A DNA stretch of 64,000 nt, from IMG/VR virus record IMGVR_UViG_3300031603_000002, positions 32,596-96,595 of that record. One strand, given 5' to 3'. This stretch comes from a virus. Under the pieces are notes generated by a model. It made no database searches. It worked only from the letters and a program-made list of their open reading frames with translations, and was not told the DNA's origin. Positions within the stretch are counted from its first letter, which is position 1; every line of letters starts with the position of its first letter. The position numbers and the translations under genes are program-made. Positions 28,666 to 43,271 of this stretch are shown in pieces.

Positions 28666-28871
28666 GACCACCTGTTTGCGATAAATGCGAACTGATTATG
28701 CAACCAACGACTGATCAGACATCCCCTGATATTCATCATTATGTCTGCCCAAAATGCACGACCCAAAACTGTCACACGTTCAGCAATCGACCAATACTAA
28801 CACGTCAAAACTATCGTAAGATTGTGGCTGACACGTTCCACTTTCTGGAGAAGCATGCTGAAGGAAAATGA
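28659..28871 (+). CDS. small Zn-ribbon protein
   Basis: CDKC...CPKC; AGGAG SD. Confidence 0.6.
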   Translation: MLGPPVCDKCELIMQPTTDQTSPDIHHYVCPKCTTQNCHTFSNRPILTRQNYRKIVADTFHFLEKHAEGK

Positions 28872-29187
28872 GTGCCTCGAGGAAGATGAGTTCAAAACCG
28901 GAGATTTGATTTGGACGATAGGAATCAATTCACCGTATATGCAGTATACATCGTTTTCGGCCTTACTCATTGATGCTGAAAACAAAATATTACTTTTCGA
29001 GTGCAAGAAAAAGAAATGGAAAAACCGATTCTACAAAACAGAACAGGAAGCAAAAGACGCGGTCGATGCTAAGCGTCGGAGTATGTATATGAGTGCCAAA
29101 GACATATGTTCTGTTCAGCCTATGACATTACCCAAGAGTGAAATATTTCACCTCCCATATGAATACAAATACAACGAGGATGACTAA
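28855..29187 (+). CDS. SH3-like protein with C-terminal capsid-protein-like (Gol-region) peptide
   Basis: FKTGDLIWTIG...FYKTEQEA scaffold; tail AVDAKRRSMYMSAKDICSVQPMTLPKSEIF resembles gp23; GGAG SD. Confidence 0.65.
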   Translation: MLKENECLEEDEFKTGDLIWTIGINSPYMQYTSFSALLIDAENKILLFECKKKKWKNRFYKTEQEAKDAVDAKRRSMYMSAKDICSVQPMTLPKSEIFHLPYEYKYNEDD

Positions 29188-29479
29188 AGTGCAAAAGTTC
29201 TATACGGTATGGGAAAACACGAATCCTGATGAACTCGAAGACAGCATTATGTCTATCATTTCATATAAAACGCAGACTGAAGTTGCCCAACTGCGAAAAC
29301 AATCGCCGAGAGCGGTCAGCAACAGGCATTGTGAAGCCGATTGGTATTTCAGGCCAGTCGCACCAGATGATGAAACAATCGCCGAAATGTTCGGGGATAA
29401 TTGGAAATATGAAACAGCTGCCGGCTTTAAGACCGACGAGGCTTTCACAGAGTGGAATAGGGGAAAAGAATGTTTGTAA
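29180..29479 (+). CDS. hypothetical protein
   Basis: overlap-coupled ORF. Confidence 0.55.
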   Translation: MTKVQKFYTVWENTNPDELEDSIMSIISYKTQTEVAQLRKQSPRAVSNRHCEADWYFRPVAPDDETIAEMFGDNWKYETAAGFKTDEAFTEWNRGKECL

Positions 29480-30093
29480 AGAAGGTAGTGAGTAACTTGT
29501 TGAAGTCTGAAGCTGCGCTCAAGAACGAGCCAGTGATTGTGTACGTCAACAAGTTTAATGAGGAAGCAGCTAAGAAGTTCTCCGAGGACATGGCAAAAGC
29601 CCAGGGAACCGGTCAACCTGTTATTCCTATCGTTATTGATAGTTATGGTGGCGCTGTATATTCGCTGATGTCCATGGTGTCAGCAATCAAAGCATCAGAA
29701 GTTCCGGTCGCTACAATTGTACTTGGAAAAGCAATGTCGTGTGGTACTGTTTTAGCTTCATGTGGTGCTGAAGGCATGCGATTTTGTTCGCCTGACGCAA
29801 CATATTTGATTCATGATGTTTCGTCATGGGCTGTCGGCAAGGTTGAAGAAATGAAAGTCAGCACCAAAGAATCCGACCGACTAGACAAGAAGTTGTACAC
29901 CCTGATGGCACGTAACTGTGGGCAGAAGGACAATTACTTCAAAAAGCTCAGTCGTAAGAAGAAGGGCGCCGACTGGTTCTTCACACCAAAAGAAGCAAAG
30001 AAGCACAATATGGCAAACCATATCTGCATTCCAAAAATGACAGTCAGCGTCGATGTCAACTTCAAGTTTCACAACTGCGATGAGGGTGAATAA
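29470..30093 (+). CDS. clpP: ClpP-like protease
   Basis: IDSYGG.V, AMSCG (catalytic Ser), YLIHD, DWFFTPKEA. Confidence 0.9.
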   Translation: MFVKKVVSNLLKSEAALKNEPVIVYVNKFNEEAAKKFSEDMAKAQGTGQPVIPIVIDSYGGAVYSLMSMVSAIKASEVPVATIVLGKAMSCGTVLASCGAEGMRFCSPDATYLIHDVSSWAVGKVEEMKVSTKESDRLDKKLYTLMARNCGQKDNYFKKLSRKKKGADWFFTPKEAKKHNMANHICIPKMTVSVDVNFKFHNCDEGE

Positions 30094-30096
30094 GTC

Positions 30097-30513
30097 ATGG
30101 ATATCCCCGGGTTTGAAATTAAGGTAAACGTTCCGCCAAAGCCTCGAAAGCTAAGAACGAAATGGGCCAGCGAACCAATCACGGACACACCCGAGGGGCT
30201 ATCAGAAACTCTGAAAAAAGATACTATAAGAGATATAATATCTCAACAGATAGCTGACGAAATTGATGCTGAGATTGCAGCTGATTTCGCTGAAAAACTT
30301 GGTACACTCCACGTGCGATTTGAGGTCGTCCCGAGAAAGGGTATGATGGTGAATTACTGCCATCCTATGAACGAAGAGAAGATGCCAGGATTGATTCTGC
30401 GCGAATGGGATCCAAACGTCAAGAACTCTGGACAAATCCTGCTTGGTGGTGGAACCAAATTCGCTTTCGCAAGTGATGACAACGCTGAGCAATGGTTCGA
30501 GGAAGTTAAATGA
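30097..30513 (+). CDS. protein with N-terminal capsid-protein-like segment and C-terminal SH3-like domain
   Basis: GFEIKV..PRKLRTKW...IISQQIADEIDAEI resembles the gp23 middle segment. Confidence 0.65.
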   Translation: MDIPGFEIKVNVPPKPRKLRTKWASEPITDTPEGLSETLKKDTIRDIISQQIADEIDAEIAADFAEKLGTLHVRFEVVPRKGMMVNYCHPMNEEKMPGLILREWDPNVKNSGQILLGGGTKFAFASDDNAEQWFEEVK

Positions 30514-30788
30514 ACCCAATGATGCCCAAGAAACCATGGTACAGCGGTCAAGGAATGAGAGTAAACCATGCAAGCGTAAAACTTACGCAGGTCCCGAAAG
30601 CAGGCGATTTGATAAAGTATGTGTTTACGCCTGCAGGTGGGATCGTGAGGTTTGGACTATGTATACAACCACAGATACATGACGGTGTAGGAAGTTTGCT
30701 AATAAATGGCGAAGTCTGGACATTTTCAGATCACCCGACATGTCAGATTGCCTGGTTTGATGTCGTTAACAACAAGGAGATAATATGA
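30510..30788 (+). CDS. SH3-like hypothetical protein
   Basis: VPKAGDLIKY; resembles the C-terminal half of 30097. Confidence 0.6.
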   Translation: MNPMMPKKPWYSGQGMRVNHASVKLTQVPKAGDLIKYVFTPAGGIVRFGLCIQPQIHDGVGSLLINGEVWTFSDHPTCQIAWFDVVNNKEII

Positions 30789-31018
30789 TTAAGAATGAAC
30801 AATGCTATAGGTGCGCTTCACTTCTGGATGAAAAACAAACATGCTCAGGATCTGGATTCACATTGAACTGTGCCTCATGTCATAAATGCCACGGTAAGGG
30901 CGGTAAGCCTATCTGCATCACATGTGGAAAATGCGCGTCGTGCGGAAACTATCGGATTAAGTTTAGGTCGCTCAGCCAAGGCGCTCGCCAACTGAAGATA
31001 AAACGATGCGAATGTTGA
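30785..31018 (+). CDS. Cys-rich Zn-binding protein
   Basis: multiple CxxC; AGGAG SD. Confidence 0.55.
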   Translation: MIKNEQCYRCASLLDEKQTCSGSGFTLNCASCHKCHGKGGKPICITCGKCASCGNYRIKFRSLSQGARQLKIKRCEC

Positions 31019-31028
31019 TGGCGATATA

Positions 31029-31445
31029 ATGAAATACGGTATGACGGGCTCACGAAAAGGCATGTCACATGAACAATATCAAAAGTTTTTTGCGCTGTTA
31101 GAACGGTACCCGAAGCTTAACCATTTGATTCATGGCGACTGTCATGGTGCTGATACAGAGGCACACATGCTTGCTGTTGAAAAAGGCCATGAAGTTACAA
31201 TCCGACCGTGCGATTTCCCAGGAGCAAGAGCTCACTCGCATGCATCTACAATTCATGAAGAAAAACGCCCGTTAGTAAGGAACCACGACATCGTCGACGA
31301 AAGTGAAATGATGTTTGCGTTCCCAGCTCAGTGGAAAGAACAGTGGCGTGGCTCCGGGACCTGGGCAACAATTCGGTATGCAAAAAAAGCTGGGAAAATG
31401 CTCTGGGTCATTTATCCTGACGGATCTGTTGTGTCTCACGTGTAA
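31029..31445 (+). CDS. SLOG (YspA/DprA-like) nucleotide-binding protein
   Basis: GMTGSR, HGDC.GAD, PLVRN..IVD, SGTWATIRYA. Confidence 0.85.
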   Translation: MKYGMTGSRKGMSHEQYQKFFALLERYPKLNHLIHGDCHGADTEAHMLAVEKGHEVTIRPCDFPGARAHSHASTIHEEKRPLVRNHDIVDESEMMFAFPAQWKEQWRGSGTWATIRYAKKAGKMLWVIYPDGSVVSHV

Positions 31446-31468
31446 AACACCGAATATTGTGGTATAAT
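31441..31468 (+). promoter_or_regulatory. sigma70-like early/middle promoter TGTAAA-16-TATAAT
   Basis: same arrangement at 21449, 35939, 44222, 62214. Confidence 0.75.
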
Positions 31469-31506
31469 AAACATGTTCCCGGGGACGATACAAAGAGGCC
31501 AACTAA

Positions 31507-32742
31507 ATGCGTGTTACAGAAATTCTAAATACAGTGAATGAAACAAAAGGCACAAATGCCAAATTGGACATTCTACGAGCCAACGCCGACAACGAAACAC
31601 TGAAGCGTGTTTTGAAGCTCAGCCTTGACCAGACAATTCAATTCTGGGTCAAGAAGGTCCCAAAGATTAGCCTTCGCATTGATGTGAAGCACCCGCGGAC
31701 CGATGCCGAGATTTGGGAGCTGCTTTTCAACGTGTTGGAAATGTGCCAGGCACGAGAGCTTACTGGCAACGCCGCCCGCGAGGCAATCCTTGATGTGCTG
31801 GTTCAGGTCACTCCAGAAGATGAGTACTGGATGCGTCGACTGATTCAGAAGAAGTCAGCCGTTGGCATCGCCCGGACAACCACGAACAAGGTTTTCCCCG
31901 GACTCATCACGACATTCAAGGTCCAGCTCGCCGATAAGTGGAATGAGAAGACTGCTAAGAAAATGCCCGACCGGGTTTTCGCCGAGCCAAAGCTTGACGG
32001 AATCCGTCTTCTTTCAATCGTGCGGAATGGGACATGCGAATCGTATGCCCGTTCAGGCAAGCGAATCTCTAACTTCGATGATACCATCGGCAAAGAATTG
32101 GCCAGTCTACCAGAAGGTGTTTACGACGGCGAGGTTATGGATGAAGACTTCACTGCTTTAATGCGTCAATACCGTCGCAAGACAGGCGCAAACGTTACGA
32201 AATCGTACCTTACAGTTTTCGACTATGTCACATTGGAAGAATGGGACAATCGAAAAGGAACTGTAACGATGCGTGCTCGTCGTGATCTCCTTGAAGACAT
32301 TTTCATGGCTAATCGTCTCGAAGGTGTTTTCCTGATTGAGCAGGTCGAAGTTGACAAGTCCATGGACGCAATTGCGGTCTGGCAGGCCAAGTGGGAATCG
32401 CTAGGTTTTGAAGGCGCCATGGTTAAGAATCCGGATGCCGTTTACAAGTTCGGTCGCTCCCGTGACATGCTGAAGGTGAAGTCATTCATCGACATCGACC
32501 TTGAGGTTATCGGTTTCAAGGAAGGAACCGGCAAGAACATCGGAAAACTCGGTTCACTCTTCGTCGACCACAACGGCGTCGAGGTAAACGTTGGTTCTGG
32601 TTTCGATGACGAGCAGCGTGTCGAGATTTGGAACAACCAAGATGATTTCCTGGGAACCACAGCTGAGTGCCGGTACCAGGAAGAGACCGATGACGGTTCG
32701 CTACGATTCCCGACCTTCGTTTGCTGGAGGCTTGATAAGTAA
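31507..32742 (+). CDS. ATP-dependent DNA ligase
   Basis: EPKLDGIR, DGEV, EGAMVK, LKVK, VGSGF, SLRFP. Confidence 0.95.
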   Translation: MRVTEILNTVNETKGTNAKLDILRANADNETLKRVLKLSLDQTIQFWVKKVPKISLRIDVKHPRTDAEIWELLFNVLEMCQARELTGNAAREAILDVLVQVTPEDEYWMRRLIQKKSAVGIARTTTNKVFPGLITTFKVQLADKWNEKTAKKMPDRVFAEPKLDGIRLLSIVRNGTCESYARSGKRISNFDDTIGKELASLPEGVYDGEVMDEDFTALMRQYRRKTGANVTKSYLTVFDYVTLEEWDNRKGTVTMRARRDLLEDIFMANRLEGVFLIEQVEVDKSMDAIAVWQAKWESLGFEGAMVKNPDAVYKFGRSRDMLKVKSFIDIDLEVIGFKEGTGKNIGKLGSLFVDHNGVEVNVGSGFDDEQRVEIWNNQDDFLGTTAECRYQEETDDGSLRFPTFVCWRLDK

Positions 32743-32927
32743 TGGAATGTTTTGGGTGGCTTTTCATCATCGGAGGCATCACGCTATGTCTCTTCCTTTT
32801 GCGTGGTCCAAAGCTGTATCACAAGAGACAAGGCAAGCCCAGCGGTAAACGTCCTTCGTTGCCATTCTCACGATTGACAACTGAATATGAGGAACACCCT
32901 GGCATTCAGATCTACAAGGAGTGGTGA
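32742..32927 (+). CDS. small membrane protein
   Basis: N-terminal hydrophobic helix; TAATG coupling. Confidence 0.5.
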   Translation: MECFGWLFIIGGITLCLFLLRGPKLYHKRQGKPSGKRPSLPFSRLTTEYEEHPGIQIYKEW

Positions 32928-32930
32928 TAA

Positions 32931-33473
32931 ATGAGTTTACCCACACGAAAGTTTATTGAAAGCGAGATGACGAACCTGGCTGACTATGTCCAGAAACATC
33001 CAGACGCCAAGAACATCGCCACGGTTTTCTGTGCTCCCAAAGGTTATGCAAGTTCGTACCCGTGGAAAACAGGCGACACACTTCTTTACGTCGGCGAGAT
33101 GCATAACATGGCCGGTCATGGTGTGTTCGTTCCAAATAAAGGAAAAATCGTCTGGGGTTACCATCTGGACAGCTTTTACGTTGAGAAACATGATGAGTTT
33201 GAATATACGTCCGCCAGATTTTTGGTCGGGTTCAGCTACTTCAAAACGTCGTCATGGAGTATGCTAGCCCGTGAACCTTCAATCGTATCGTTTACAGCCC
33301 ATGCTTCAAAGGGGTTGGCATTGAATCTTGATTTCTGGATGGCAGAATCCCTAAAGGAAGGATGGCCGCCGATGACGAAGAACGATTTTTATGACAAGGT
33401 GATGCAGGAGGCCCTAGATTATTATCACGTCTGGGATGGGCCACGAGATGAGATGTTATGCAAAAATGGGTGA
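32931..33473 (+). CDS. hypothetical protein
   Basis: AGGAG SD; WKTGDTLLY SH3-like start. Confidence 0.6.
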   Translation: MSLPTRKFIESEMTNLADYVQKHPDAKNIATVFCAPKGYASSYPWKTGDTLLYVGEMHNMAGHGVFVPNKGKIVWGYHLDSFYVEKHDEFEYTSARFLVGFSYFKTSSWSMLAREPSIVSFTAHASKGLALNLDFWMAESLKEGWPPMTKNDFYDKVMQEALDYYHVWDGPRDEMLCKNG

Positions 33474-33742
33474 GCGTCCTTGGCAAAATGCCAAAGAAAG
33501 GTGATCTGGTACGCCTGACAAGGCTCGAACTTTCATCGACGACTTTCGGCGAGGTGACAACATATAGTTGCACACGCAATAACTGGCGTCCAGCAATGTG
33601 TTCAGGGGTGACACGCTCACACGATGCGAAATATATAACATTACAATTTCACGACAGAATGGAGTGGTTTTTCTTTGAAGATGATAAAGACAAAGTGCCC
33701 TTCGCAAAATACGAATTAGGAGTAATAGAAAATGGAAAATGA
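33458..33742 (+). CDS. SH3-like hypothetical protein
   Basis: MPKKGDLVRL. Confidence 0.55.
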   Translation: MQKWVSVLGKMPKKGDLVRLTRLELSSTTFGEVTTYSCTRNNWRPAMCSGVTRSHDAKYITLQFHDRMEWFFFEDDKDKVPFAKYELGVIENGK

Positions 33743-34244
33743 AATCAAATATGTCAATGGTGACGCAACAAAACCAATCGGTGAAGGTATAAAGTATATC
33801 ACGCATATCTGTAATGATATCGGGGGATGGGGACGCGGGTTTGTCCTGTCTCTATCGAAGGAACATCCGCATGCTGAAACAGCATACCGGTCGTGGTATC
33901 AGCAGAATGATGATGAGTTGTTTGAGCTTGGACGCGTCCAGCTCGTCGAGTCGAAGGATAAAATCACCGTCGTGAACATGATTGGCCAGCATGGCATCTT
34001 TACCAAAGATGGCGTACCCCCAATTCGCTATCCTGCTGTTCGATCTTGCTTCCACCAGGTTGCGAAGTTTGCAATAGGTGTTGGCGCCTCGGTTCACATG
34101 CCTCGAATTGGTTGTGGGTTGGCAGGCGGTAAATGGTCTGAGATTGAGAAAATCGTGAACGAAGAGTTGATCGCGAAGGGCATCGAAGTCTATGTGTATG
34201 ATTTCGACACAAAAGATGCCCGCACAATCCCTTGGAAGAAGTAA
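33732..34244 (+). CDS. macrodomain ADP-ribose hydrolase (DarG/TARG1-like)
   Basis: GDAT, HICNDIGGWGRGF, NMIGQ, MPRIGCGLAGGKW. Confidence 0.9.
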   Translation: MENEIKYVNGDATKPIGEGIKYITHICNDIGGWGRGFVLSLSKEHPHAETAYRSWYQQNDDELFELGRVQLVESKDKITVVNMIGQHGIFTKDGVPPIRYPAVRSCFHQVAKFAIGVGASVHMPRIGCGLAGGKWSEIEKIVNEELIAKGIEVYVYDFDTKDARTIPWKK

Positions 34245-34762
34245 TGATTACCAACACCGATGAATATTGGGACGCGATTCTTTGGGAAGCGTCGCAGGAA
34301 GACACCAAAACAATCATGATTTCGACGTATGGAATGTACGCCGGCGTTTCTGATACTGGCGAGAATACTGCAGCAAAGTACAGCTTTGATCGACGCCCAC
34401 AGCGAATCTTGGATTTGTCAAACAAGGGTAAGAAGGTGATCTTTCTGTTGTCGGAGAGTGATCCGATCATTTGTACTCCTGGCTGTGAACATTGCATTGC
34501 AAAATCGAAGAAACGCGACGCAAGGAATAATGCCCATTTCGAAGCATGGCCGAATGTCGCTTGGTTTATGACACAAAATCATCACCTCAAGGCATTTATC
34601 GTCCAGAAAAAGGATGGCCGAATTGTAGGATACACCGGAGGACGTAATTTCTCATCTTCTTCCTGGCGTGACGTTTCAGTTGCTCTTTCTGAGGACGACG
34701 CAGCAAACTTGATGAAACACCTGCTTTTCATTATAAAAACGTACGCCGTGAAATTGAACTGA
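34244..34762 (+). CDS. single-domain phospholipase D-family (HxK) protein, probable nuclease
   Basis: ISTYG, HHLKAFIV...YTGGRNFS. Confidence 0.7.
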   Translation: MITNTDEYWDAILWEASQEDTKTIMISTYGMYAGVSDTGENTAAKYSFDRRPQRILDLSNKGKKVIFLLSESDPIICTPGCEHCIAKSKKRDARNNAHFEAWPNVAWFMTQNHHLKAFIVQKKDGRIVGYTGGRNFSSSSWRDVSVALSEDDAANLMKHLLFIIKTYAVKLN

Positions 34763-34788
34763 TACTTAGTGTCACAACAGGGGAAACT

Positions 34789-35127
34789 ATGAAAATCACA
34801 AAAAACCAATTGCGCAGACTGGTTCGAGAGCAACTTGAGCCCAGTTCAAAATGGGAAGTGCTTGTCAGGCATTCACAAGATCCTAATGCTATAAAGGGTG
34901 CTCCAGGCGTCCAAGAAGCTCTGCGGGCTCTAGCACTCGAGGTTTCCGAGCTTGGCGTATATAGCGATCAGCATGGCGCCGCGATGGACATACTCGAATC
35001 CGCCGGAATGTCATACAAGGACACGTACCAATATGCAGAAGATGCTATGCGGAATTACGGTAATGTTGAAGAAGGCGATGAAGATTGGGACGACGAAGGC
35101 GAAGGCGACGGCGAAGAAGACTGGTAG
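34789..35127 (+). CDS. leader-bearing putative head-internal protein
   Basis: MKITKNQLRRLVREQ; ATACTTA at 34762; acidic tail. Confidence 0.75.
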   Translation: MKITKNQLRRLVREQLEPSSKWEVLVRHSQDPNAIKGAPGVQEALRALALEVSELGVYSDQHGAAMDILESAGMSYKDTYQYAEDAMRNYGNVEEGDEDWDDEGEGDGEEDW

Positions 35128-35160
35128 CATCCGCGAATAACTCAAACAAAAAGGTGACAA

Positions 35161-35943
35161 ATGCCAGAAGGCGCAGAATGCAAGCTAATTGGTGAGTCTC
35201 TAGCAAAAATGGTGGGCCTTCGTCGCGTTACGTCGATTGAGCCTATCACAGGAAGATATACAAAAAAGCCAATCGAGGGTGTTGAGAATATTCTCGGTGC
35301 CAAGGTCGTTGGCATCGGTGTTAAGGGGAAATTGCTCTTCTGGATATTCGATAACGACCACTTTCTATTAAACACATTGGGAATGTCGGGAGCCTGGTCT
35401 TCTGAGCAACCAAAGAATACCAGAGTCAGCATTGAATTTGACACCGGTAAGCCTGTCTATTTTGCTGACCCACGAGGTTTTGGGACGCTGAAGGCGATTT
35501 ACGGGCGCACGGCATTCCTAAAGAAGCTGGAATCTCTAGGTCCTGACATGCTGACTGAGCCACCGTCATTGGAGGAGTTCACGGCAAGACTGGACACAAA
35601 ACCCCATTGGACAATCTGTAAGGCATTGATGGACCAAGGAGTCATCTCAGGCGTAGGAAACTACGTAAAGGCAGAATCCCTTTACCGAGCGACCGTGTGG
35701 CCTGGGACGACCGTCGCGGCGATGTCCGGCAAGGAAATCAAAGGATTGTATCATGCGATTCTCGGGGTTCTGCAGGAGAGCTACGATTTAGGCTTGAGCG
35801 GGTTGTACGGTAATCATGACAGGTTTCAAGTGTACGGAAAGAAAACTGACCCGTATGGGAACGAAGTGAAGAAAACAGAGTTCTCAGACAAGCGTGTGAC
35901 GCATTGGGTTCCTGCCGTACAAGGCGTTCAAAATAAAGTGTAA
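35161..35943 (+). CDS. mutM: Fpg/Nei DNA glycosylase with zincless finger
   Basis: MPEG.E N-terminus, KGK, LGMSG, D.RGFG, LGPD, GVGNYVKAE. Confidence 0.9.
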   Translation: MPEGAECKLIGESLAKMVGLRRVTSIEPITGRYTKKPIEGVENILGAKVVGIGVKGKLLFWIFDNDHFLLNTLGMSGAWSSEQPKNTRVSIEFDTGKPVYFADPRGFGTLKAIYGRTAFLKKLESLGPDMLTEPPSLEEFTARLDTKPHWTICKALMDQGVISGVGNYVKAESLYRATVWPGTTVAAMSGKEIKGLYHAILGVLQESYDLGLSGLYGNHDRFQVYGKKTDPYGNEVKKTEFSDKRVTHWVPAVQGVQNKV

Positions 35944-35990
35944 ACATCACAGATTACCATTATAGTATTGATATTACTTATGAGGAATCT

Positions 35991-36575: not shown

Positions 36576-36803
36576 ATGAAACTATCAGACAACAGCATTT
36601 CACAATTGGTACGGGTTTTGCAGCTCGCAATTCTCACCGGAACTGATGTAACGGACAACATTCGAATGATTCAATTCGTTGAGGAAGATGGATTCCTCGA
36701 GCTTGATGATGAGTATCTGTCGACGTTTGAAGACAATCTCACCAAACTTAGCGACAGCGGTGATGAAATCCGTGAAGCACGAGTTCCAAAGGACGCTAAC
36801 TAA
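36576..36803 (+). CDS. hypothetical protein
   Basis: LQLAILTGTDVTDNIR; coupled. Confidence 0.65.
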   Translation: MKLSDNSISQLVRVLQLAILTGTDVTDNIRMIQFVEEDGFLELDDEYLSTFEDNLTKLSDSGDEIREARVPKDAN

Positions 36804-37171
36804 TGGCTGATCGTCTCAATCGTATGTTCGTGCAACAACGGGCATTTATCAAACTTTTGGAGGAGAAGCGAGGACATCCCTCGGCTCCACTTGATTTGAC
36901 TGATAAAAAGAATCAGCAATTCCTGAAGCATTTATCGCATGAGTGTATGAATGAGCTTTTTGAGTCGATCGCCCACCTGAAAAACACAAAGATTCATCGA
37001 GCGACGAATTTGCCTGATTTCAATCGTGAGGAATATAAGGAAGAGCTCAGCGATGTGTTGCATTACCTAATTGGCATCATGATCTATTCTGATATCGACT
37101 ACGAAGAAATCTTTGAGATGTATATGAAGAAAGGTGAAGTCAACGTGAAACGAATCGAAACAGGATACTAA
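36803..37171 (+). CDS. all-alpha NTP pyrophosphatase (MazG/dimeric dUTPase/dCTPase-like)
   Basis: E..ELFE...KEELSDVLHY...Y.KK..VN..R...GY. Confidence 0.8.
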   Translation: MADRLNRMFVQQRAFIKLLEEKRGHPSAPLDLTDKKNQQFLKHLSHECMNELFESIAHLKNTKIHRATNLPDFNREEYKEELSDVLHYLIGIMIYSDIDYEEIFEMYMKKGEVNVKRIETGY

Positions 37172-37399
37172 ATGCTATCGCAAAATGTAAAGCAGAGAAT
37201 CAGGGGTGCAGTAGCGCTTGGTGCCCAAATTGTTGGGCCAAAGCTGGTTCCAACAACAGCTCACCCGGTGAGAAACCCACATGCCCATTTGTGGCGAGAA
37301 ATCAAAACAAAAATGGGCAAATCATATTCTGAATGTGAAGACGCCGATGAGAAAGAAATCATGGAAGTCATCAAGTTCTATGTCGAAAACCCGCGCTAA
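37172..37399 (+). CDS. hypothetical protein
   Basis: HPVRNPHAHLW...GKSY; coupled. Confidence 0.6.
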   Translation: MLSQNVKQRIRGAVALGAQIVGPKLVPTTAHPVRNPHAHLWREIKTKMGKSYSECEDADEKEIMEVIKFYVENPR

Positions 37400-37408
37400 A
37401 GAGAAATT

Positions 37409-38353
37409 ATGAAACTCAAGAAAATGCTGAAAAGGCAGAAGAAGTTTTCTGACTGCTTTTTCGATTCAAAGTCATTAACTGAAGCTGAAAAAATTGAGCT
37501 TCATAAAACCTTTTGCCTTTCGATGCACTCTGAGTTGTCATTCTTGGCGAACACGGTGCAATATCGAGATCATCGACCGACAAGCGTAGCGACCCATCGT
37601 GAGAACATTTTGTTCGAGACAATGGACGTTATGCGATATTCCATGGCGATGCTCAATTTGTGGGACTTCTCCATTGAAGAAATTGAGCATGCATTCAAGT
37701 CACGTGCAGCACATCTCGAAAATCGAAATGTAAAGAACATCGAAAGCTGGAATGGCAATCCCGTGATCATATGTGATATGGATGATGTCCTGACGCGGTT
37801 CCGCGAAGATTTCTATGGCTGGATAAATACAGCATACGACCAGGAATTAGATGAGAAATCAGGCGAGTATTACCTGAAGAGTACCGTTGAGGGAAAATCA
37901 AGTGATGCACTCCTTGCAGAATTCACTCACGGTGGGCATAATGAGGATCTAGGCGTTAACACTCATATGATTGCAGAACTAAAGCAACTTCATGATGCCG
38001 GCTACTGGATTCATATTTTGACAGCACGGCCATCGAGTAACCTGAAGTGCCTATATGAAACGTATGAATGGCTGGCAAAGCATGCCCCGTTTTTTGATTC
38101 TGTTTCATTGCAGTCAGAGAAATACCTCTGGTTGGCGAGCACCGAACCTTACAAGGCAGGACAGGTTGTATGCGCGATTGATGATTCGCCGAAACATGCA
38201 GCAGAATTTGCCCAGCACGGTATCCCAACACTGGTTCCAAAAAGGAATTACAACCGCTCAGTGTGGAAAAATGAGAACGTCACGTACTTCGATTGGGAGC
38301 GCGGATCGATTCAAAAATATGTTGCAGAATGCTTGAACAACATCGGCGCATAA
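37409..38353 (+). CDS. MazG-like domain fused to HAD 5'(3')-deoxyribonucleotidase
   Basis: N-term SEL...FETMDV.RY; C-term CDMDDVL, LTAR, IDDSP. Confidence 0.75.
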   Translation: MKLKKMLKRQKKFSDCFFDSKSLTEAEKIELHKTFCLSMHSELSFLANTVQYRDHRPTSVATHRENILFETMDVMRYSMAMLNLWDFSIEEIEHAFKSRAAHLENRNVKNIESWNGNPVIICDMDDVLTRFREDFYGWINTAYDQELDEKSGEYYLKSTVEGKSSDALLAEFTHGGHNEDLGVNTHMIAELKQLHDAGYWIHILTARPSSNLKCLYETYEWLAKHAPFFDSVSLQSEKYLWLASTEPYKAGQVVCAIDDSPKHAAEFAQHGIPTLVPKRNYNRSVWKNENVTYFDWERGSIQKYVAECLNNIGA

Positions 38354-38397
38354 GTTACTATATCTAAAGTTCGACAACACAAAAAAGGAGCACAATC

Positions 38398-39333
38398 GTG
38401 ACGGCTACAAGAGGATTCAAGGATATTGAGGTTACCCTATTGGACAGTGGAAACCCAGAACCATTCAAGATGTTTTGGAATTGGTACCGTGAGACATGGT
38501 ATTCACTTCGAAACCAGGAGTACGACCCGAAGAACCCTGAGCATCGTAAAGCATGTGAGGATGTGGTCGCAGCACGTGCTCTTCCGATTCCCCAGGAGGC
38601 CCTAAGCTTCCAGGTTCGTGTCGAGGGACTTAGTCGGGTTGGACTGGCACAATTCACAAGAGGCCGTATTGGGTGGGCCTATGTTGTGACGTCGCAAATG
38701 CCAGAGGCAATCGAGCATGCAGTTACGGTTCCAACCAATGTCTACGATTTTGGTTTTGGAGACGAGGCTGAGAAGTTGGTTGCAAAGTCACAGGAATTGT
38801 ACGACAAAATGCTTGAGGCAGGTATTCCTCCACAAGATTGTCGATACCTGACGATTCATGGCCAACAAACAAACCTCACATGTGTGGTCAACTTCATGGC
38901 CCTAAAAGGCTACTTTGCCCGCCGGTGTGAAAATGGTCTGACTGACGAGTTGAATTTGGTTGGTCGTAAGATTCTGTGTGAGCTGAAAAAGGTGCATCTC
39001 AATGCCGATGGAACCGACAAGGTCGTAGGTTCAGGCTGGTCTTTCTTGATGACTAAGCTCGAAGCGATGGGAGGTAATCGCCATTGTCTAAACAGCGACA
39101 AGGTTTTCGGCAATACGGGTCGTGCAGAGAGCGCAGGCCAATGGATTCCATCGCTTGTGAATGAAAACAACCTATGCGATTTTGATTTCAGCAAATCAGC
39201 GTGGTACAAAGAATTGCTTGAGTTACCAGACGAATTATTGTTCGCCGGTGAGAGAGAAATGATCAACGACTGGAAATCGATTGGTTTTAAGGGTCGTCTC
39301 AACAAGCTTGCAGGTCGCCCGGTGAGCAAGTAA
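38398..39333 (+). CDS. divergent ThyX-family flavoprotein
   Basis: E.LSF..EGLSR..AQFTRGR...SQ, YDKMLEAGIP.QDCRY, N...L..YF.RR; RHR motif altered to RGR. Confidence 0.75.
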   Translation: MTATRGFKDIEVTLLDSGNPEPFKMFWNWYRETWYSLRNQEYDPKNPEHRKACEDVVAARALPIPQEALSFQVRVEGLSRVGLAQFTRGRIGWAYVVTSQMPEAIEHAVTVPTNVYDFGFGDEAEKLVAKSQELYDKMLEAGIPPQDCRYLTIHGQQTNLTCVVNFMALKGYFARRCENGLTDELNLVGRKILCELKKVHLNADGTDKVVGSGWSFLMTKLEAMGGNRHCLNSDKVFGNTGRAESAGQWIPSLVNENNLCDFDFSKSAWYKELLELPDELLFAGEREMINDWKSIGFKGRLNKLAGRPVSK

Positions 39334-40382
39334 TGGCCGAGATATTGACGGCAGCTGATTTTGCAAGTTTCAAATCCCTAAAACAGGGCGGGTTCTCTAA
39401 CAAAGACCAGGATGCAATCTTGGCTAAGATCGTACAATATCTCAAACAAATTGATGGGTTCCCAAGTGAGTATCCATTGACAGGTCGTCCGTTTCCAGAG
39501 AACCCGACATTCAAAGACATCAGGTCGTTCGATGATGAATCGGTGCTGCTGTCAGAGAGTGGTTCAGCAGAAAATGAAGATTGGCATAAGGTTTACAACA
39601 AACCGTCGTATGTCCTGAATTCGTTCTGCTATTACCATTTTGGTTCAAATACGATGATGAATGCATTGATTAGTGCGTTCGGAAAGTTTGAATATATGCC
39701 AAAGGTGATTCTGGATTTCGGGGGCGGTTGTGGACTGACAACGGCACACTTGGCTAGGGCCTTTCCTGATACAGAGGTTCACGTTCTAAATAAGCCAGGT
39801 ATCCAGTTGGAGCTGGCGAAGAATTTTGCAGACAACATCGACAACATGTTCGCGCATGAGATTGATGATTATGACGATGAGATTCCTTTGAAGGCGGACG
39901 TTGTCGTGGCCCTTGATGTTTTCGAACATGTCTATAGGCCCCTCGAGGTCCTGGACAAAATTGTCACACCTGATTGCAAGTTCTTCGTTGAGAACACACC
40001 GTTCAAGACTCCTGGACTTGGACACTTTTCGTTGTTCGAAACGTATGGTCACCCATGTTCCAGGAGGGCATCTCGAAATACAGACCGGGATGCACTTCGC
40101 AAAGCGCTAAAAGACAATGTTTCAATCGATGAAATTATTGCCGCTGGAATTGTCCCGGATGTCAACATCTTATTCAATCACAGGATTCGTCATCACGGAT
40201 TTCATGATGGAGTTGTAAAGCTGTTCAATTCACGTCCAAAGGTTCATATCAATGCTGACATTTGTGAAGAAATTGATGAGAGAACGAAGGATTGGTCAAG
40301 GAATACTCGCCGCCTGATGAAAAATGGTTCCCTCAAGGCTGACTACCGAAAGAAGATGGAAGTCCCGGAGAATCTACAATGA
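39333..40382 (+). CDS. class I SAM-dependent methyltransferase
   Basis: VILDFGGGCG, DVVVALDVFEHV. Confidence 0.8.
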   Translation: MAEILTAADFASFKSLKQGGFSNKDQDAILAKIVQYLKQIDGFPSEYPLTGRPFPENPTFKDIRSFDDESVLLSESGSAENEDWHKVYNKPSYVLNSFCYYHFGSNTMMNALISAFGKFEYMPKVILDFGGGCGLTTAHLARAFPDTEVHVLNKPGIQLELAKNFADNIDNMFAHEIDDYDDEIPLKADVVVALDVFEHVYRPLEVLDKIVTPDCKFFVENTPFKTPGLGHFSLFETYGHPCSRRASRNTDRDALRKALKDNVSIDEIIAAGIVPDVNILFNHRIRHHGFHDGVVKLFNSRPKVHINADICEEIDERTKDWSRNTRRLMKNGSLKADYRKKMEVPENLQ

Positions 40383-40912
40383 GCCAGCAGATCGTGATAT
40401 TCGATGGTCCGGACAATTGTGGCAAAACCAATATGGCATTGGATTTGGCAAAGCGGACTCGCGTTACATACTTCAAAAACAAGGACGAACACAAATATTT
40501 CCTGTCAGATCCGTCGTACTTCAAGAACGCGATTCGCTATGTGGACACGTATTTCACATCTTACCTCGAGGCATCTGGCAATTCGGTCATTCTGGATAGG
40601 GCGTGGCCATCAGAGTACGTCTACAGTCATGTTCTGAATAGGCCAACAGACATGGCGGTTTTAGAGGCCTTAGATGCAAGGCATGCAGTGTTAGGCACGA
40701 AGATTATCATCCCATTTCGGACTGATTATTCGATGTGCAAAGACGATTATAAGATTGTGAATGACACAATCAAAAACATTCATGATAGGTATCATGAGTT
40801 TGCAGAGTGGTCAAAGTGTCGCACTCTGCTATTGAACGTAGACGATGAAGATCTCAGTCGAGAAATGGATGAAATCCTTCCATTTTTGGGTATGGCTAAT
40901 CTCACAAAGTAG
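40379..40912 (+). CDS. deoxynucleoside monophosphate (thymidylate-like) kinase
   Basis: IFDGPDNCGKT, ILDRAWPSEYVYS. Confidence 0.85.
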   Translation: MSQQIVIFDGPDNCGKTNMALDLAKRTRVTYFKNKDEHKYFLSDPSYFKNAIRYVDTYFTSYLEASGNSVILDRAWPSEYVYSHVLNRPTDMAVLEALDARHAVLGTKIIIPFRTDYSMCKDDYKIVNDTIKNIHDRYHEFAEWSKCRTLLLNVDDEDLSREMDEILPFLGMANLTK

Positions 40913-40920
40913 GAAAATAA

Positions 40921-41118
40921 ATGACATTTCAAGAGTTGAAAAAAGAGAATATAAAAGGTGCGAAATCAATAGGCTATCATGTTTATCACGAATCACCAGA
41001 TTGTGTGATTTTGTGCAAGAACGATTTCGCGCAGGAGTGGATAGTCACCAATGAGGGCATTCTCGCAAATGGTAGGCCCACCACTGAAGTTGAGCGCACA
41101 TGGTTACGCAACCAGTAA
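40921..41118 (+). CDS. hypothetical protein
   Basis: AGGA SD. Confidence 0.5.
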   Translation: MTFQELKKENIKGAKSIGYHVYHESPDCVILCKNDFAQEWIVTNEGILANGRPTTEVERTWLRNQ

Positions 41119-41160
41119 ATTACTTTTTTACATTTCTACAATAACAGATACTTATTAACC

Positions 41161-41337
41161 ATGAACAAAGCAACAATCAACATCGACAAAAACCTACACA
41201 AAAAACTGAAATTGCATTGTGCAATTCATGGTGTAAAACTAGGCACGCTCGTTGATAAGATTGTTGAGGGGTGGTTGGAAGATGCTGGTAGAAATAACGA
41301 GAGAGAACGGGATCCGCGAAGCGATTCTCAAGTGTGA
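41161..41337 (+). CDS. ribbon-helix-helix DNA-binding protein (not in ORF track)
   Basis: MNKATINIDKNLHKKLKLHCAIHGVKLGTLVDKIVEGWL, 58 aa; ATACTTA 6 nt upstream. Confidence 0.7.
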   Translation: MNKATINIDKNLHKKLKLHCAIHGVKLGTLVDKIVEGWLEDAGRNNERERDPRSDSQV

Positions 41338-42220
41338 CCAATGTGATGATACGTTCAGAAAAACGTTTGGTTTCACAAAAAGATTTCATTTTTGTTCAAA
41401 GAAATGTGTATACGCAGCCCAAAGAAAAGGCGGTGTGTCGTATGAACTAAGAAAGAAAAGGTCACTTGAAAAGCATGGTACAGAATTTCCGATGTCAACT
41501 GACGCCGTCAAAAACACCCGCAGAAAAAACGTTAGGGCGAAATATGGTGTCGACAGCGTGTTTCAACTTGAAAGCATGAAGGAAAAGTCAAAACAGACAT
41601 GCCTTGAAAAGTACGGTGTTGAGGTTTATTCACAGGTTGATGAGTTTAAGGAACGCATCGCAGCAACTAACATGACGAAATTTGGCTATGGATCTCCAAT
41701 CGAAAATCCTGACGTTTTGGCGCGCCGCCGTACAACAATGCTTCGATTGTATGGAGGTCGATCAACATTCGAATCGCCTGTATTGCGCGAGCGAGCAAAA
41801 CGAACATGCCTTGAAAGATACGGTGTGCCAAATATCGTTTATTCACCATCATTTATTAGTTCATCGATGGACAAAAAACTCATGAAAACCCATGGTAAGA
41901 CATGGCAGCAATACAAAGACGAGCTACCTGCAAATCACGATTATAGACGAAGGGTCGATCATGTAACGAGAATGCAGCCAATTCATTTGCTTCAAAACAG
42001 CGAAAAAAGAGGTGAGTATCACTTGGACCACAAATATTCAGTAGCAGAAGGCTTCAGGAATAACGTCCCAGTTGAAATTATCGGGAGCATTGCAAATCTT
42101 GAATTTATACCCGCGACTGATAACATGAAAAAGGGCGCAGCATGCTCTATTACTGAACAACAGTTACGAAAACTATACTATACTAATCTAAAGGAGAACA
42201 CAAACAATGAAAACACATAA
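41282..42220 (+). CDS. free-standing HNH-like homing endonuclease with T.LEKYG repeats
   Basis: CDQC/FCSKKC; repeated KQTCLEKYGV-type units; YHLDHKYS...NLEFIP...N..K. Confidence 0.75.
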   Translation: MLVEITRENGIREAILKCDQCDDTFRKTFGFTKRFHFCSKKCVYAAQRKGGVSYELRKKRSLEKHGTEFPMSTDAVKNTRRKNVRAKYGVDSVFQLESMKEKSKQTCLEKYGVEVYSQVDEFKERIAATNMTKFGYGSPIENPDVLARRRTTMLRLYGGRSTFESPVLRERAKRTCLERYGVPNIVYSPSFISSSMDKKLMKTHGKTWQQYKDELPANHDYRRRVDHVTRMQPIHLLQNSEKRGEYHLDHKYSVAEGFRNNVPVEIIGSIANLEFIPATDNMKKGAACSITEQQLRKLYYTNLKENTNNENT

Positions 42221-42662
42221 ATGCTATCTTGCAGCCGGCTGGTTCAATCCCATTCAAGCCCAGGAACTAGATAAACTCGAGTCAGTACTTGACACCCGAG
42301 CCGATTGGATTGACTTAGCATCACCACGCAGAATCTTTATTTGCCCGCCAAACGCGTCAAAGGAGGTTCAAGACTCTACATACCATGGTAACCTGAAGCA
42401 TATTCGTGAGGCAGATTTTTTGATTGCAAATACGCGCGATAAAGATTTGGGTACGATCATGGAATGCGGCTATGCCGCAGCACATAAAAAACCGATCGTT
42501 TATTTCTGTGACGGACTGCCAGCGGGCGCCAAGTTCAATTTGATGCTGGCAAGATCGGCAATCAAGGTATGCACCTCATTCGACGAGCTTAATGATTACC
42601 TCGACCGATGCCACACGGCAGGTGAGCTTTTGGAGGAGCCATATGACGCAGCAATCGAATAA
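42207..42662 (+). CDS. nucleoside 2-deoxyribosyltransferase / nucleotide N-glycosidase family
   Basis: YLAAGWF, D.GT..ECGYA...KPI, FNLML. Confidence 0.85.
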   Translation: MKTHKCYLAAGWFNPIQAQELDKLESVLDTRADWIDLASPRRIFICPPNASKEVQDSTYHGNLKHIREADFLIANTRDKDLGTIMECGYAAAHKKPIVYFCDGLPAGAKFNLMLARSAIKVCTSFDELNDYLDRCHTAGELLEEPYDAAIE

Positions 42663-42951
42663 TATAAAATTGACGTTGACGCCGTCAATCGTGAACCATG
42701 AAGCAACTGTAAACGGTGTTGATGTTTGGTCAATCAAGCGGGGCTATATGTATTGGAACATTGCCGAGAACAGGACTGAAAAGTTTGATCCGCCACAGTA
42801 TAAAATGTTGGGCCTTTATGAAAAGATCGATGCCGAATCAGAGTTTGCACGCTCAGGCCGAGCTCACACGGTTACAATTATCAACTTCCCATCATTTAAG
42901 CCTCAGGAGATGTTTTTCAAGAAAATTGCTGAGGATGAGCTGGGAGAATGA
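42643..42951 (+). CDS. hypothetical protein
   Basis: GGAGG SD. Confidence 0.55.
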   Translation: MTQQSNNIKLTLTPSIVNHEATVNGVDVWSIKRGYMYWNIAENRTEKFDPPQYKMLGLYEKIDAESEFARSGRAHTVTIINFPSFKPQEMFFKKIAEDELGE

Positions 42952-43271
42952 TTCGCGGTACCTGCAAGGTTGGTGACTTAGTTTGGACGATCGGCCGAGG
43001 TATGCCGCATGCTGTTCGTCCTGGTTTGGTGACACGAGTAATAGCACCAACACACATCGAGTCGACATGGGATAAATATGAAGTCCTAGTCGATGGCCAG
43101 AAGAAAGAATTTTATGCAGAAAGCGTTTGTGAGTCAGAGGAGAAAGCTGAAAAGGTAGCTGTTGAATGCCGCCGCAACTCAGTCAGTCGTACAGGACAAA
43201 CATACCTTGAATCTGGTTTTGTTTATGCTCCGTATGTCCCGTTGGAAGTCACACCAACGCTGGTTGTTTAG
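42948..43271 (+). CDS. SH3-like protein with C-terminal capsid-protein-like peptide
   Basis: KVGDLVWTIG scaffold; tail GQTYLESGFVYAPYVPLEVTPT resembles the gp23 C-terminal strand. Confidence 0.7.
   Translation: MIRGTCKVGDLVWTIGRGMPHAVRPGLVTRVIAPTHIESTWDKYEVLVDGQKKEFYAESVCESEEKAEKVAVECRRNSVSRTGQTYLESGFVYAPYVPLEVTPTLVV

What the first reader, a model, noticed from the sequence alone, without database searches (positions are those of the whole stretch)
28855..43271. Candidate new system: three SH3-like proteins each displaying a different major-capsid-protein fragment (capsid-epitope decoys)
Seen in sequence: three small ORFs in the non-structural region (28855-29187, 30097-30513, 42948-43271) each join a short beta-barrel-like scaffold to an appended segment. 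Two scaffolds are clear paralogues (KTGDLIWTIG...TEQEA..RRS vs KVGDLVWTIG...SEEKA..RRNS) but end in unrelated tails. From recalled T4 gp23 sequence, the three segments match three separate conserved parts of gp23-type capsid protein: DICSVQPMTLP (gp23 DICGVQPMNSP), PRKLRTKW...ISQQIADEIDAEI (gp23 SRQLKAAY...LATEIMLEINREV) and ESGFVYAPYVPL (gp23 DAGIYYAPYVAL). Established: capsid proteins trigger abortive defences such as Lit and CapRel. Inference: the phage makes non-assembling capsid epitopes to titrate or jam capsid-sensing immunity. Alternatives are interference with rival phage/satellite head assembly, or recombination debris. The real capsid gene is outside this window.
Basis: partly seen in the sequence, partly recalled or inferred. 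Interest (0 to 1): 0.92.

Follow-up and report, generated by a model that had tools for sequence, protein, structure and literature searches.

The report
Capsid-protein excerpts on small carrier proteins
A huge uncultured phage keeps three small, selected genes that each display a different short core piece of its own capsid-shell protein, two of them on a tiny Tudor/SH3-like barrel; I found no paper describing this gene design, and its job (capsid-assembly control or immune decoy) is untested.

Summary
All three ORFs exist, and each carries a significant match to the gp23-type major capsid protein (MCP). The real MCP gene lies 20 kb upstream of the window on the same 96.6-kb contig.

- **What the pieces are.** They do not overlap, and all three are core elements of the MCP peripheral (P) domain:
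  - ORF1 carries the first P strand, which corresponds to T4's Gol region.
  - ORF2 carries the linker strand plus spine helix, and possibly the last P strand.
  - ORF3 carries the strand before the P-loop.
- **Age and selection.** The copies are ancient: synonymous sites are randomised against the MCP gene. They are under purifying selection and are conserved in a 318-kb relative.
- **Carriers.** ORF1 and ORF3 share a lineage-restricted Tudor/SH3-like barrel plus helix, and the ORF3 excerpt is modelled as a disordered tail. An SH3-like domain in ORF2 is not shown.
- **Wider set.** The genome also holds a mini-MCP (N-arm + P domain) and a stand-alone A-domain. A 595-kb phage independently fuses the P-hairpin to a Cys-rich domain.
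- **Function.** The decoy idea is neither supported nor excluded. I favour P-domain mimicry acting on unassembled capsid protein.

This scan has noted similar "capsid-fragment mini-genes" in other huge phages. I found no paper on them.

The parts
28855..29187 (+). ORF1 (110 aa). Residues 1-73 are a Tudor/SH3-like barrel plus helix. Residues 74-110 are an MCP excerpt matching own MCP 90-126 and T4 gp23 about 101-137, which is the Gol-equivalent first P-domain strand. The core match is at nt 29095-29166.
   Evidence: Orthologues are 71-87% identical. dN/dS is about 0.1 in both scaffold and tail.
30097..30513 (+). ORF2 (138 aa). Residues 2-66 (nt 30100-30294) match MCP 368-434: the I-domain-linker-2 strand plus the spine helix, equivalent to T4 gp23 about 248-313. 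Residues 78-101 (nt 30328-30399) possibly match MCP 598-621, the last P-domain strand. The remaining beta-rich C-terminus is of unknown origin.
   Evidence: Orthologues are 69-81% identical. The AF2 model is unusable. No relation to the next ORF was found.
42948..43271 (+). ORF3 (107 aa). Residues 1-82 are a Tudor/SH3-like barrel plus helix. Residues 79-106 (nt 43182-43265) match MCP 565-592, the P-domain strand that ends where the P-loop begins (T4 gp23 about 436-460). The protein stops right after this strand.
   Evidence: In four family members the scaffold is 36-60% identical, while the tail keeps G.VYAPYVPL..TP.L.V and the same C-terminal end.
29470..30093 (+). ClpP-family protease gene lying between ORF1 and ORF2. 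The same order is kept in the 318-kb relative. It is not the prohead protease.
   Evidence: Pfam CLP_protease, E 1.5e-25. The T4 gp21-type prohead protease is elsewhere, at G000:C1:7538-7954. The G001 orthologues of ORF1 and ORF2 are at 103223-103549 and 101899-102357.
44807..45088 (+). Third paralogue of the barrel-plus-helix scaffold (93 aa), with no capsid excerpt.
   Evidence: Local profile search. It is cluster P0012 in the 1.84-billion-protein search.
41148..41154 (+). Nearest upstream copy of the candidate late-type promoter motif ATA[CT]TTA. It heads the same-strand gene run that ends with ORF3. There is no such motif directly before ORF1 or ORF2.
   Evidence: 23 copies on the + strand against 6 on the - strand. 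By position relative to start codons, about a dozen lie in or at the edge of intergenic DNA 12-47 nt before a start codon, including the MCP's; the script itself flagged 14 copies as intergenic. That this motif is a promoter is an inference.

Best explanation
**What it is (high confidence).** ORF1, ORF2 and ORF3 are real, selected genes. Each carries an ancient excerpt of the phage's own gp23-type capsid protein. Together the excerpts are the non-overlapping core elements of the capsid protein's peripheral (P) domain:
- ORF1 has the first P strand.
- ORF2 has the returning linker strand plus spine helix, and perhaps the last P strand.
- ORF3 has the strand before the P-loop.

The cuts fall at domain borders. 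In ORF1 and ORF3 the excerpt sits at the C-terminus of a lineage-specific Tudor/SH3-like barrel plus helix. For ORF3 the excerpt is modelled as a disordered tail.

**How it most likely works (inferred, moderate to low confidence).** I propose mimicry by fold complementation.
1. On its own an excerpt has no fold.
2. It pairs with the complementary P-domain strands or helix, either of not-yet-assembled capsid protein or of the sister excerpts.
3. This brings the carrier domain to capsid subunits, or caps them, before they enter the lattice.

The result would be a device for controlling or quality-checking capsid-protein folding and assembly in a phage that must build a very large shell. It is probably made from the non-structural gene blocks. 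ORF1 and ORF2 flank a phage ClpP gene.
For: **Homology and chance control.**

**Complementarity and domain-precise borders.**
- ORF1 ends 6 residues after MCP 120, where the 121-367 insertion domain begins.
- ORF2 begins at MCP 368, where that insertion ends.
- ORF3 stops at MCP 592, just before the P-loop.
- The T4 domain map is taken from PMC9546572.

**Ancient copies kept by protein-level selection.**
- Third-codon positions are 22-29% identical between the tails and the MCP gene. This holds even within identical amino acids.
- Between the two phages, pN is 0.17-0.27 in the excerpts against pS 0.48-0.68.
- The ORF3 tail is nearly invariant while its scaffold falls to 36% identity.

**Structure.** The ORF3 tail is modelled as disordered beside a confident barrel plus helix.

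**Wider MCP-derived set.**
- This genome has a mini-MCP (N-arm + P domain, 229 aa) and a stand-alone A-domain (168 aa) next to the head genes. The relative has two further such ORFs.
- No other large protein of the relative matches several small ORFs over separate parts of its length in this way; its other matches are ordinary paralogue families.

**Independent recurrence.** LR756511 (595 kb) has five MCP-fragment ORFs. One is a Cys-rich domain fused to the P-hairpin, 57% identical to that phage's own MCP, E 1e-15.

**Absent from smaller relatives.** Seven gp23-type phages of 124-227 kb, and one of 484 kb, show only the MCP gene.

**Role of the P domain in T4.** In T4, P-domain strands and P-loops make the inter-capsomer contacts (PMC9546572).
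Against: - No binding was tested.
- ORF1-3 lie among replication and nucleotide-metabolism genes, not head genes. ORF1 and ORF2 lack the late-type motif carried by the MCP gene.
- The tails evolve faster than the matching MCP segments. Those segments are 100% identical between the two phages, while the tails are 52-70% identical. The tails therefore do not track the MCP closely.
- A copy of a strand that the MCP already possesses would compete with the MCP's own strand rather than complete it. The effect could therefore be inhibitory.
- The ClpP link rests on gene order in two closely related genomes only.
Confidence: 0.42

Rival explanations
1. Immune decoys or traps. Each excerpt copies a conserved linear capsid peptide that a host abortive-infection sensor reads. 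The carrier-bound copy would engage the sensor or its cofactor unproductively, and earlier than the real capsid protein appears.
For: - The ORF1 tail aligns to the T4 gp23 region around residues 101-137. It is 7 of 8 identical to T4's DICGVQPM motif, which I recall as lying in the Gol peptide.
- Gol is a 29-residue linear stretch in the first quarter of gp23. It is described as the most conserved gp23 region. It binds EF-Tu and switches on the Lit protease (PMC3014915).
- The genes sit in non-structural blocks without the late-type motif, which fits early production.
- The tails keep family-consensus residues. The ORF3 tail matches the clade consensus at 20 of 27 conserved columns, against 18 of 28 for its own MCP.
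Against: - A displayed Gol-like peptide would be expected to trigger a Lit-type system, not block it, unless the carrier hinders cleavage.
- No sensor is known for the other two pieces.
- The known capsid sensors I am aware of mostly read folded proteins (my own knowledge).
- The pieces are complementary parts of one domain, cut at domain borders. The genome also has whole-domain MCP paralogues. A decoy model does not predict either.
- The host is unknown, so no defence gene could be checked.
Confidence: 0.2
2. A capsid-like module assembled in trans. ORF1, ORF2 and ORF3 bind one another through their excerpts. They rebuild a P-domain-like sheet plus helix that carries two Tudor-like barrels. 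This would be a composite accessory protein, for example at special lattice positions or as a nucleator.
For: - Coverage is non-overlapping and complementary: MCP 97-120, 368-434 (plus possibly 598-621) and 565-592.
- The end of ORF1 and the start of ORF2 are the two stumps of the excised insertion domain, which lie side by side in the MCP.
- The ORF3 tail is modelled as disordered. ORF2 gives no confident model on its own (pLDDT 38).
- All three are present in both genomes.
Against:
- ORF3 lies 12 kb from the other two and evolves much faster (36% against about 70% identity).
- The assignment of the last strand in ORF2 is weak (P 46%).
- The genome already encodes a self-sufficient mini-MCP.
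Confidence: 0.15
3. Weapons against rival phages or satellites. The excerpts would act as dominant-negative pieces that poison the capsid assembly of co-infecting gp23-type phages.
For: - The tails resemble the consensus of the very abundant marine gp23 MCPs at least as well as they resemble the phage's own MCP. ORF3 is 74% identical to many foreign MCPs against 67% to its own.
- ORF1's DICSVQPM is closer to T4's motif than to the phage's own NDLVSIQPM.
Against: - The differences amount to only one or two residues. The phage's own MCP shares the same conserved motifs and would be poisoned too.
- No evidence of co-infection is available.
Confidence: 0.1
4. Recombination debris: leftovers of a broken second capsid gene that happen to lie in frame with neighbouring ORFs and have no function.
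For: - The pieces lie on one strand, in nearly the same order as in the MCP.
- Huge phages carry many duplicated genes.
Against: - Synonymous sites are saturated while the key residues are retained.
- The ORF3 tail is nearly invariant across members whose scaffolds are 36-60% identical.
- Orthologues are intact in all relatives found.
- The borders are domain-precise.
- A different carrier domain is used independently in another phage.
Confidence: 0.03

Closest known systems
T4 gp23 major capsid protein and its paralogue gp24, the vertex protein (Pfam PF07068, HK97 fold; PDB 5vf3, 6uzc, 8gmo)
   Same: The excerpts are homologous to defined gp23 segments: T4 about 101-137, 248-313 and 436-460. 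As with gp24, they come from an old duplication of the capsid gene.
   Different: gp24 is a full-length capsid-fold protein that sits in the shell. These proteins hold only 24-66 residues of the fold, attached to foreign carrier domains. They cannot form an HK97 fold alone. No full-length second capsid gene was found in the 93%-complete relative.
The Gol peptide of T4 gp23 with the Lit protease and EF-Tu (e14 prophage exclusion)
   Same: The ORF1 tail is the counterpart of the Gol region. Gol is a precedent that a short linear piece of gp23 is biologically active on its own (PMC3014915).
   Different: Gol acts as part of the capsid protein and is a liability for the phage. Here the piece is a separate gene on a carrier. 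Binding to EF-Tu or to a Lit-like protease was not tested.
'Tagged capsid-fragment mini-genes' noted by this scan in other huge phages (unpublished AI notes)
   Same: These are small selected genes made of gp23 pieces in huge phages. The strand-plus-helix piece (T4 about 248-312) recurs, and ORF2 carries the same piece.
   Different: In those genomes the pieces carry a short shared peptide tag. Here two of them sit on a folded Tudor/SH3-like barrel plus helix, and no shared tag was seen. I did not re-examine those notes.
Donor-strand complementation (chaperone-usher pilus assembly)
   Same: A protein lends a beta strand that fits into another subunit's incomplete sheet and so controls polymerisation. 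That is the type of mechanism proposed here.
   Different: There is no homology. Pilins truly lack the strand, whereas the MCP has its own copy. This is an analogy only, drawn from my own knowledge.
Tudor, chromo-barrel, PWWP and KOW small beta-barrels (SH3-like)
   Same: The ORF3 scaffold model superposes on these domains (Z up to 8.1, rmsd 1.1-2.6 A over 51-67 residues). As in PWWP, a helix follows the barrel.
   Different: There is no sequence similarity. An aromatic cage or nucleic-acid binding was not examined. By profile search the scaffold family is limited to three clusters in 1.84 billion proteins.

Membership tests
gp23-type major capsid protein (Pfam PF07068) | Significant match to the family profile | tested here: met
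   ORF1 scores 25.7 bits against a 24.4-bit cut-off. ORF2 (17.9 bits) and ORF3 (11.8 bits) fall below the cut-off. All three are significant by profile-profile comparison (E 8e-8, 4.5e-9, 1.7e-16).
gp23-type major capsid protein (Pfam PF07068) | Complete HK97 fold (N-arm, P domain, A domain) able to form capsomers | tested here: not met
   The matches cover only 24, 65 (plus possibly 24) and 28 residues of a 628-residue protein. The rest of ORF1 and ORF3 is a Tudor-like barrel. The ORFs contain excerpts of the family and are not capsid proteins.
gp24-type vertex protein (full-length MCP paralogue) | Second full-length gp23-like gene | tested here: not met
   Only one full-length MCP gene was found in this contig and in the 93%-complete 318-kb relative.
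SH3-like small beta-barrel (Tudor / chromo-barrel / PWWP type) | Five-stranded barrel of about 60 residues that superposes on solved members | tested here: inconclusive
   For ORF3 the AF2 model has pLDDT 72 (70-88 in the barrel). All top VIA-align rows are Tudor, chromo-barrel, PWWP or KOW domains, Z 6-8.1. The tool notes that Z near 8 is the typical best score of any model. Foldseek gives E about 1e-2. ORF1 is assigned by paralogy only. For ORF2 this is not shown.
Gol-type Lit trigger | Sequence counterpart of the T4 gp23 Gol region | tested here: met
   The ORF1 tail aligns to MCP 90-126, equivalent to T4 gp23 about 101-137. Gol is a 29-residue stretch in the first quarter of gp23 and its most conserved region (PMC3014915). 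The exact Gol residue numbers are from my memory.
Gol-type Lit trigger | Binds EF-Tu domains II/III and enables cleavage by a Lit protease | not testable with these tools
Phage anti-defence decoy | Binds a host sensor, or its trigger site, and blocks activation | not testable with these tools
   No host genome or sensor is known for this phage.

The most novel reading that the evidence does not exclude
Huge gp23-type phages have turned excerpts of their own capsid protein into a tool kit. Short core strands or helices of the P domain, displayed on small carrier domains, would act as specific handles on the capsid fold. In this phage the three handles together make up a whole P domain. They would either rebuild it in trans or grip unassembled capsid protein, so as to time, proof-read or sabotage shell assembly. 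One of them (the Gol counterpart) may in addition trap a Lit-like abortive-infection system. That would make this a new class of self-mimicry proteins in virus assembly and defence evasion.
Probability: 0.3. Interest if true: 0.9.

Novelty: categorically new. Interest (0 to 1): 0.72.

Why it matters
How very large capsids are built accurately is an open question, and so is how phages cope with defences that read capsid proteins. If these proteins bind the capsid protein through copied strands, they would be natural, sequence-specific modulators of HK97-fold assembly. The principle could be reused for any such capsid. If they are decoys, they would be the first counter-measure aimed at capsid-peptide sensing. 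Either way, the design recurs in at least two huge-phage lineages with different carrier domains, and I found no description of it in the searchable literature.

Tried and rejected

**Searches and models that gave nothing usable.**
- The AF2 model of ORF2 is unusable (pLDDT 38).
- ORF1 alone has no PDB sequence match.
- Megablast of the region against cultured phages found nothing.
- tblastn of ORF3 against cultured phages found nothing.
- tblastn of ORF1 found only two MCP genes.
- The ESM Atlas gave only unnamed small viral clusters.
- The sigma-70 and terminator consensus scan was at chance level (35 sites against 30.4 expected).
- Four literature searches found no paper on capsid-fragment proteins or capsid decoys in phages.

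**Ideas rejected.**
- The idea that ORF2's C-terminal half is a copy of the next ORF is rejected (BLASTP E 0.98, hhalign P 0.8%).
- The idea that the ClpP gene is the prohead protease is rejected, because a gp21-type protease lies in the head module.
- A recent duplication or gene conversion from the MCP gene is rejected, because third-codon positions are random.

**Uninformative analysis.** Comparing conserved with variable MCP columns told nothing, because nearly all columns of the clade alignment are conserved.

Full report
**1. Setting**

The window is bases 32596-96595 of a 96.6-kb IMG/VR virus contig (G000). CheckV puts it at 28% complete, which implies a genome of roughly 300 kb or more.

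The contig's gp23-type major capsid protein (MCP) gene is at G000:C1:12303-14189 and encodes 628 aa. It lies 20 kb before the window. It aligns to T4 gp23 structures (5vf3, 6uzc, 8gmo; E about 1e-29). Residues about 121-367 are a long insertion.

A close relative, G001 (IMGVR_UViG_3300022902_000004), is 318 kb and 93% complete. Its MCP is 92% identical. I fetched it whole.

**2.

The three ORFs are present as described. All three match the Pfam Gp23 profile at three separate places, and ORF1 is above the curated cut-off.

| ORF | Residues | Own-MCP residues | BLASTP E | hhalign v 37 MCPs |
|---|---|---|---|---|
| ORF1 | 81-104 | 97-120 | 2e-6 | P 94.5%, E 8e-8 |
| ORF2 | 2-66 | 368-434 | 1e-7 | P 96%, E 4.5e-9 |
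| ORF2 | 78-101 | 598-621 | - | P 46%, E 2e-4 (weak) |
| ORF3 | 79-106 | 565-592 | 2e-10 | P 98.7%, E 1.7e-16 |

As a chance control, I ran an HMM of the MCP clade against all 3,984 six-frame ORFs of G000 and G001. Besides the two MCPs, it picks out twelve fragment ORFs at E <= 0.0025. Nothing else scores better than E = 1.5.

**3. What the pieces are**

I used the T4 alignment and the published T4 domain map (PMC9546572).

| ORF piece | T4 gp23 residues (approx.) | Structural element |
|---|---|---|
| ORF1 tail | 101-137 | First P-domain strand, running into I-domain linker 1 |
| ORF2 N-terminal part | 248-313 | I-domain linker 2 / P strand plus the spine helix |
| ORF3 tail | 436-460 | P-domain strand before the P-loop |
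| ORF2 78-101 (weak) | 468-491 | Strand after the P-loop |

The pieces do not overlap, and together they make up the core of the peripheral (P) domain. The borders fall at domain boundaries:
- ORF1 ends six residues after the point where the insertion domain leaves the fold.
- ORF2 starts where the insertion domain returns.
- ORF3 stops where the P-loop starts.

The ORF1 piece is the counterpart of the T4 Gol region. Gol is a 29-residue stretch in the first quarter of gp23. It is described as the most conserved part of gp23, binds EF-Tu and activates the Lit protease (PMC3014915). The exact Gol residue numbers are from my memory.

**4. The carriers**

- The ORF1 and ORF3 scaffolds are paralogues (E 2e-6). 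A third paralogue without a tail lies at 44807-45088.
- With an 11-sequence alignment, AF2 models ORF3 at pLDDT 72. The model has strands at 11-15, 23-32, 43-48 and 51-56, a short bridge near 60, and a helix at 64-82. The tail 83-107 is unstructured, with pLDDT below 50.
- Every top structural match is a Tudor, chromo-barrel, PWWP or KOW barrel. VIA-align gives Z 6-8.1 with rmsd 1.1-2.6 A over 51-67 residues. Foldseek gives E about 1e-2.
- These are middling scores, so I call the fold 'SH3-like, Tudor type' with some reserve.
- A profile of the scaffold finds only three true clusters among 1.84 billion representative proteins: the ORF1 family, the ORF3 family and the tail-less paralogue. The carrier is therefore lineage-restricted.
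- ORF2's C-terminal half could not be assigned (pLDDT 38). It is not related to the next ORF.

**5. Selection, not debris**

- Orthologues of all three ORFs exist in G001, at 72%, 68% and 36% identity. Further homologues occur in metagenomes.
- In the ORF3 family the scaffold drops to 36-60% identity. The tail keeps G.VYAPYVPL..TP.L.V and always ends at the same place.
- Between G000 and G001, dN/dS is about 0.1 for both parts of ORF1 and about 0.2 for the ORF2 excerpt. dS is near saturation.
- Between the tails and the MCP gene, third-codon positions are 22-29% identical, which is random. This holds even within identical amino acids.
- The copies are therefore old, and the shared residues are held by selection on the protein. 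Recent duplication, gene conversion or a DNA-level function does not explain them.
- The tails do not track the MCP closely. The MCP segments are 100% identical between the two phages, while the tails are 52-70% identical.

**6. A larger set**

Outside the window, near the head genes, G000 has two more MCP-derived genes:
- a 229-aa protein matching the MCP N-arm, which by eye continues into the strand, spine helix and C-terminal P strands, with no insertion domain and no A domain;
- a 168-aa protein matching the A domain.

G001 has both of these plus one more of each kind. In G001 no other large protein matches several small ORFs over separate parts of its length in this way; its other matches are ordinary paralogue families.

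The unrelated huge phage LR756511 (595 kb; MCP about 38% identical) has five dispersed fragment ORFs of its own MCP:
- three copies of the insertion domain;
- one A-domain copy;
- one 99-aa protein that joins a Cys-rich N-terminal domain to the P-hairpin. It is 57% identical to its own MCP, E 1e-15.

Only the MCP gene itself was found in:
- five relatives of 124-191 kb;
- phages of 190 kb and 227 kb;
- the 484-kb LR756508.

The trait is thus recurrent but not universal. So far I have seen it only in very large genomes.

**7. Context and timing (inference)**

- ORF1 and ORF2 lie in a tight same-strand run and flank a ClpP-family protease gene. By eye, the translations in the same run also look like a Dam-type methylase and a DNA ligase (not profile-tested). 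G001 has the same order.
- The gp21-type prohead protease is in the head module, so this ClpP gene is an extra protease.
- The motif ATA[CT]TTA occurs 23 times on the + strand and 6 times on the - strand. By position, about a dozen copies sit 12-47 nt before start codons, in or at the edge of intergenic DNA. These include the MCP start and other head-region genes.
- No copy of the motif lies directly before ORF1 or ORF2. One, at 41148, heads the gene run that ends with ORF3.
- A generic sigma-70 and terminator scan was at chance level.

**8. Mechanism**

*Shown.* Three selected proteins each expose, at a terminus, a core P-domain element. For ORF3 that element is modelled as unfolded on its own. 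Two of the proteins carry a small barrel domain.

*Inferred.* Such an element can only be used by pairing with the complementary P-domain elements. Those could belong to unassembled MCP, to the sister excerpts, or to a factor that normally reads that part of the MCP.

*My ranking.*
- I rank first a role in controlling or quality-checking capsid-protein folding and assembly (0.42).
- A trans-assembled P-domain-like module is a specific variant of that idea (0.15).
- Immune decoy or trap follows (0.2). It is kept alive by the Gol correspondence and the non-structural location.
- Interference with rival phages comes next (0.1).
- Debris is last (0.03).

**9. Comparison and novelty**

- The ORFs contain excerpts of the gp23 family but are not capsid proteins. 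They fail the full-fold criterion.
- They are unlike gp24, which is a full-length paralogue.
- Gol/Lit is the nearest precedent for an active linear gp23 peptide.
- Donor-strand complementation is the nearest mechanistic analogy.
- Four literature searches found no description of such genes (with readings).
- This scan's earlier notes list similar 'tagged capsid-fragment mini-genes' in other huge phages. They also list the same fragments on this genome.
- Those notes are unchecked AI notes. I re-tested only the ones on this genome.
- The case here differs in three ways. It uses a folded Tudor-like carrier instead of a short tag. Its three-way complementary coverage makes up one domain. Two of the genes neighbour a ClpP gene.

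Noticed in passing
G000:C1:17492-18181 and 20205-20711 (outside the window, 14-12 kb before its start; L007:3496-4182 and L007:6206-6712): Two further MCP-derived genes lie near the head module. One is a 229-aa mini-MCP whose N-arm matches MCP 13-95 (P 96%). The other is a 168-aa stand-alone A-domain matching MCP 442-522 (P 98%). They might form a split second capsid-fold protein.
   Followed up: partly
LR756511.1 (595-kb uncultured phage): 125929-126168, 196022-196390, 306716-306949, 430562-430804, 588176-588304 (loci L120, L122-L125): This phage has five dispersed ORFs made of pieces of its own MCP: three insertion-domain copies, one A-domain copy, and one Cys-rich domain joined to the P-hairpin. 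The theme is the same as here, but the carriers differ.
   Followed up: partly
whole contig; e.g. window 716, 4232, 17274, 34762, 41148, 53119, 60525: The motif ATA[CT]TTA is strand-biased (23 against 6 copies). It mostly sits 12-47 nt before start codons, including that of the MCP. It is a candidate late-type promoter of this phage.
   Followed up: partly
window 29470-30093: A phage-encoded ClpP-family protease (Pfam E 1.5e-25) is present in addition to a gp21-type prohead protease. It is sandwiched between two of the capsid-excerpt genes.
   Followed up: partly
window 34789-35127: An acidic 112-aa protein starts with MKITKNQLRRLVRE and sits directly behind an ATACTTA motif. Earlier notes of this scan describe a family of such leaders as a possible capsid-targeting signal. 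I did not test this.
   Followed up: no
G000 v G001, MCP gene: Synonymous divergence of the MCP gene (dS 0.43; 0.05-0.17 in its core segments) is far lower than that of the accessory genes (dS 1-2). The cause could be strong codon constraint or a recent exchange of the MCP gene between the two lineages.
   Followed up: no
G001:C1:209348-209836 and 303567-304097: The 318-kb relative has one more A-domain-type and one more N-arm-type MCP paralogue. They are not seen in the partial G000 contig and may lie in its missing part.
   Followed up: no
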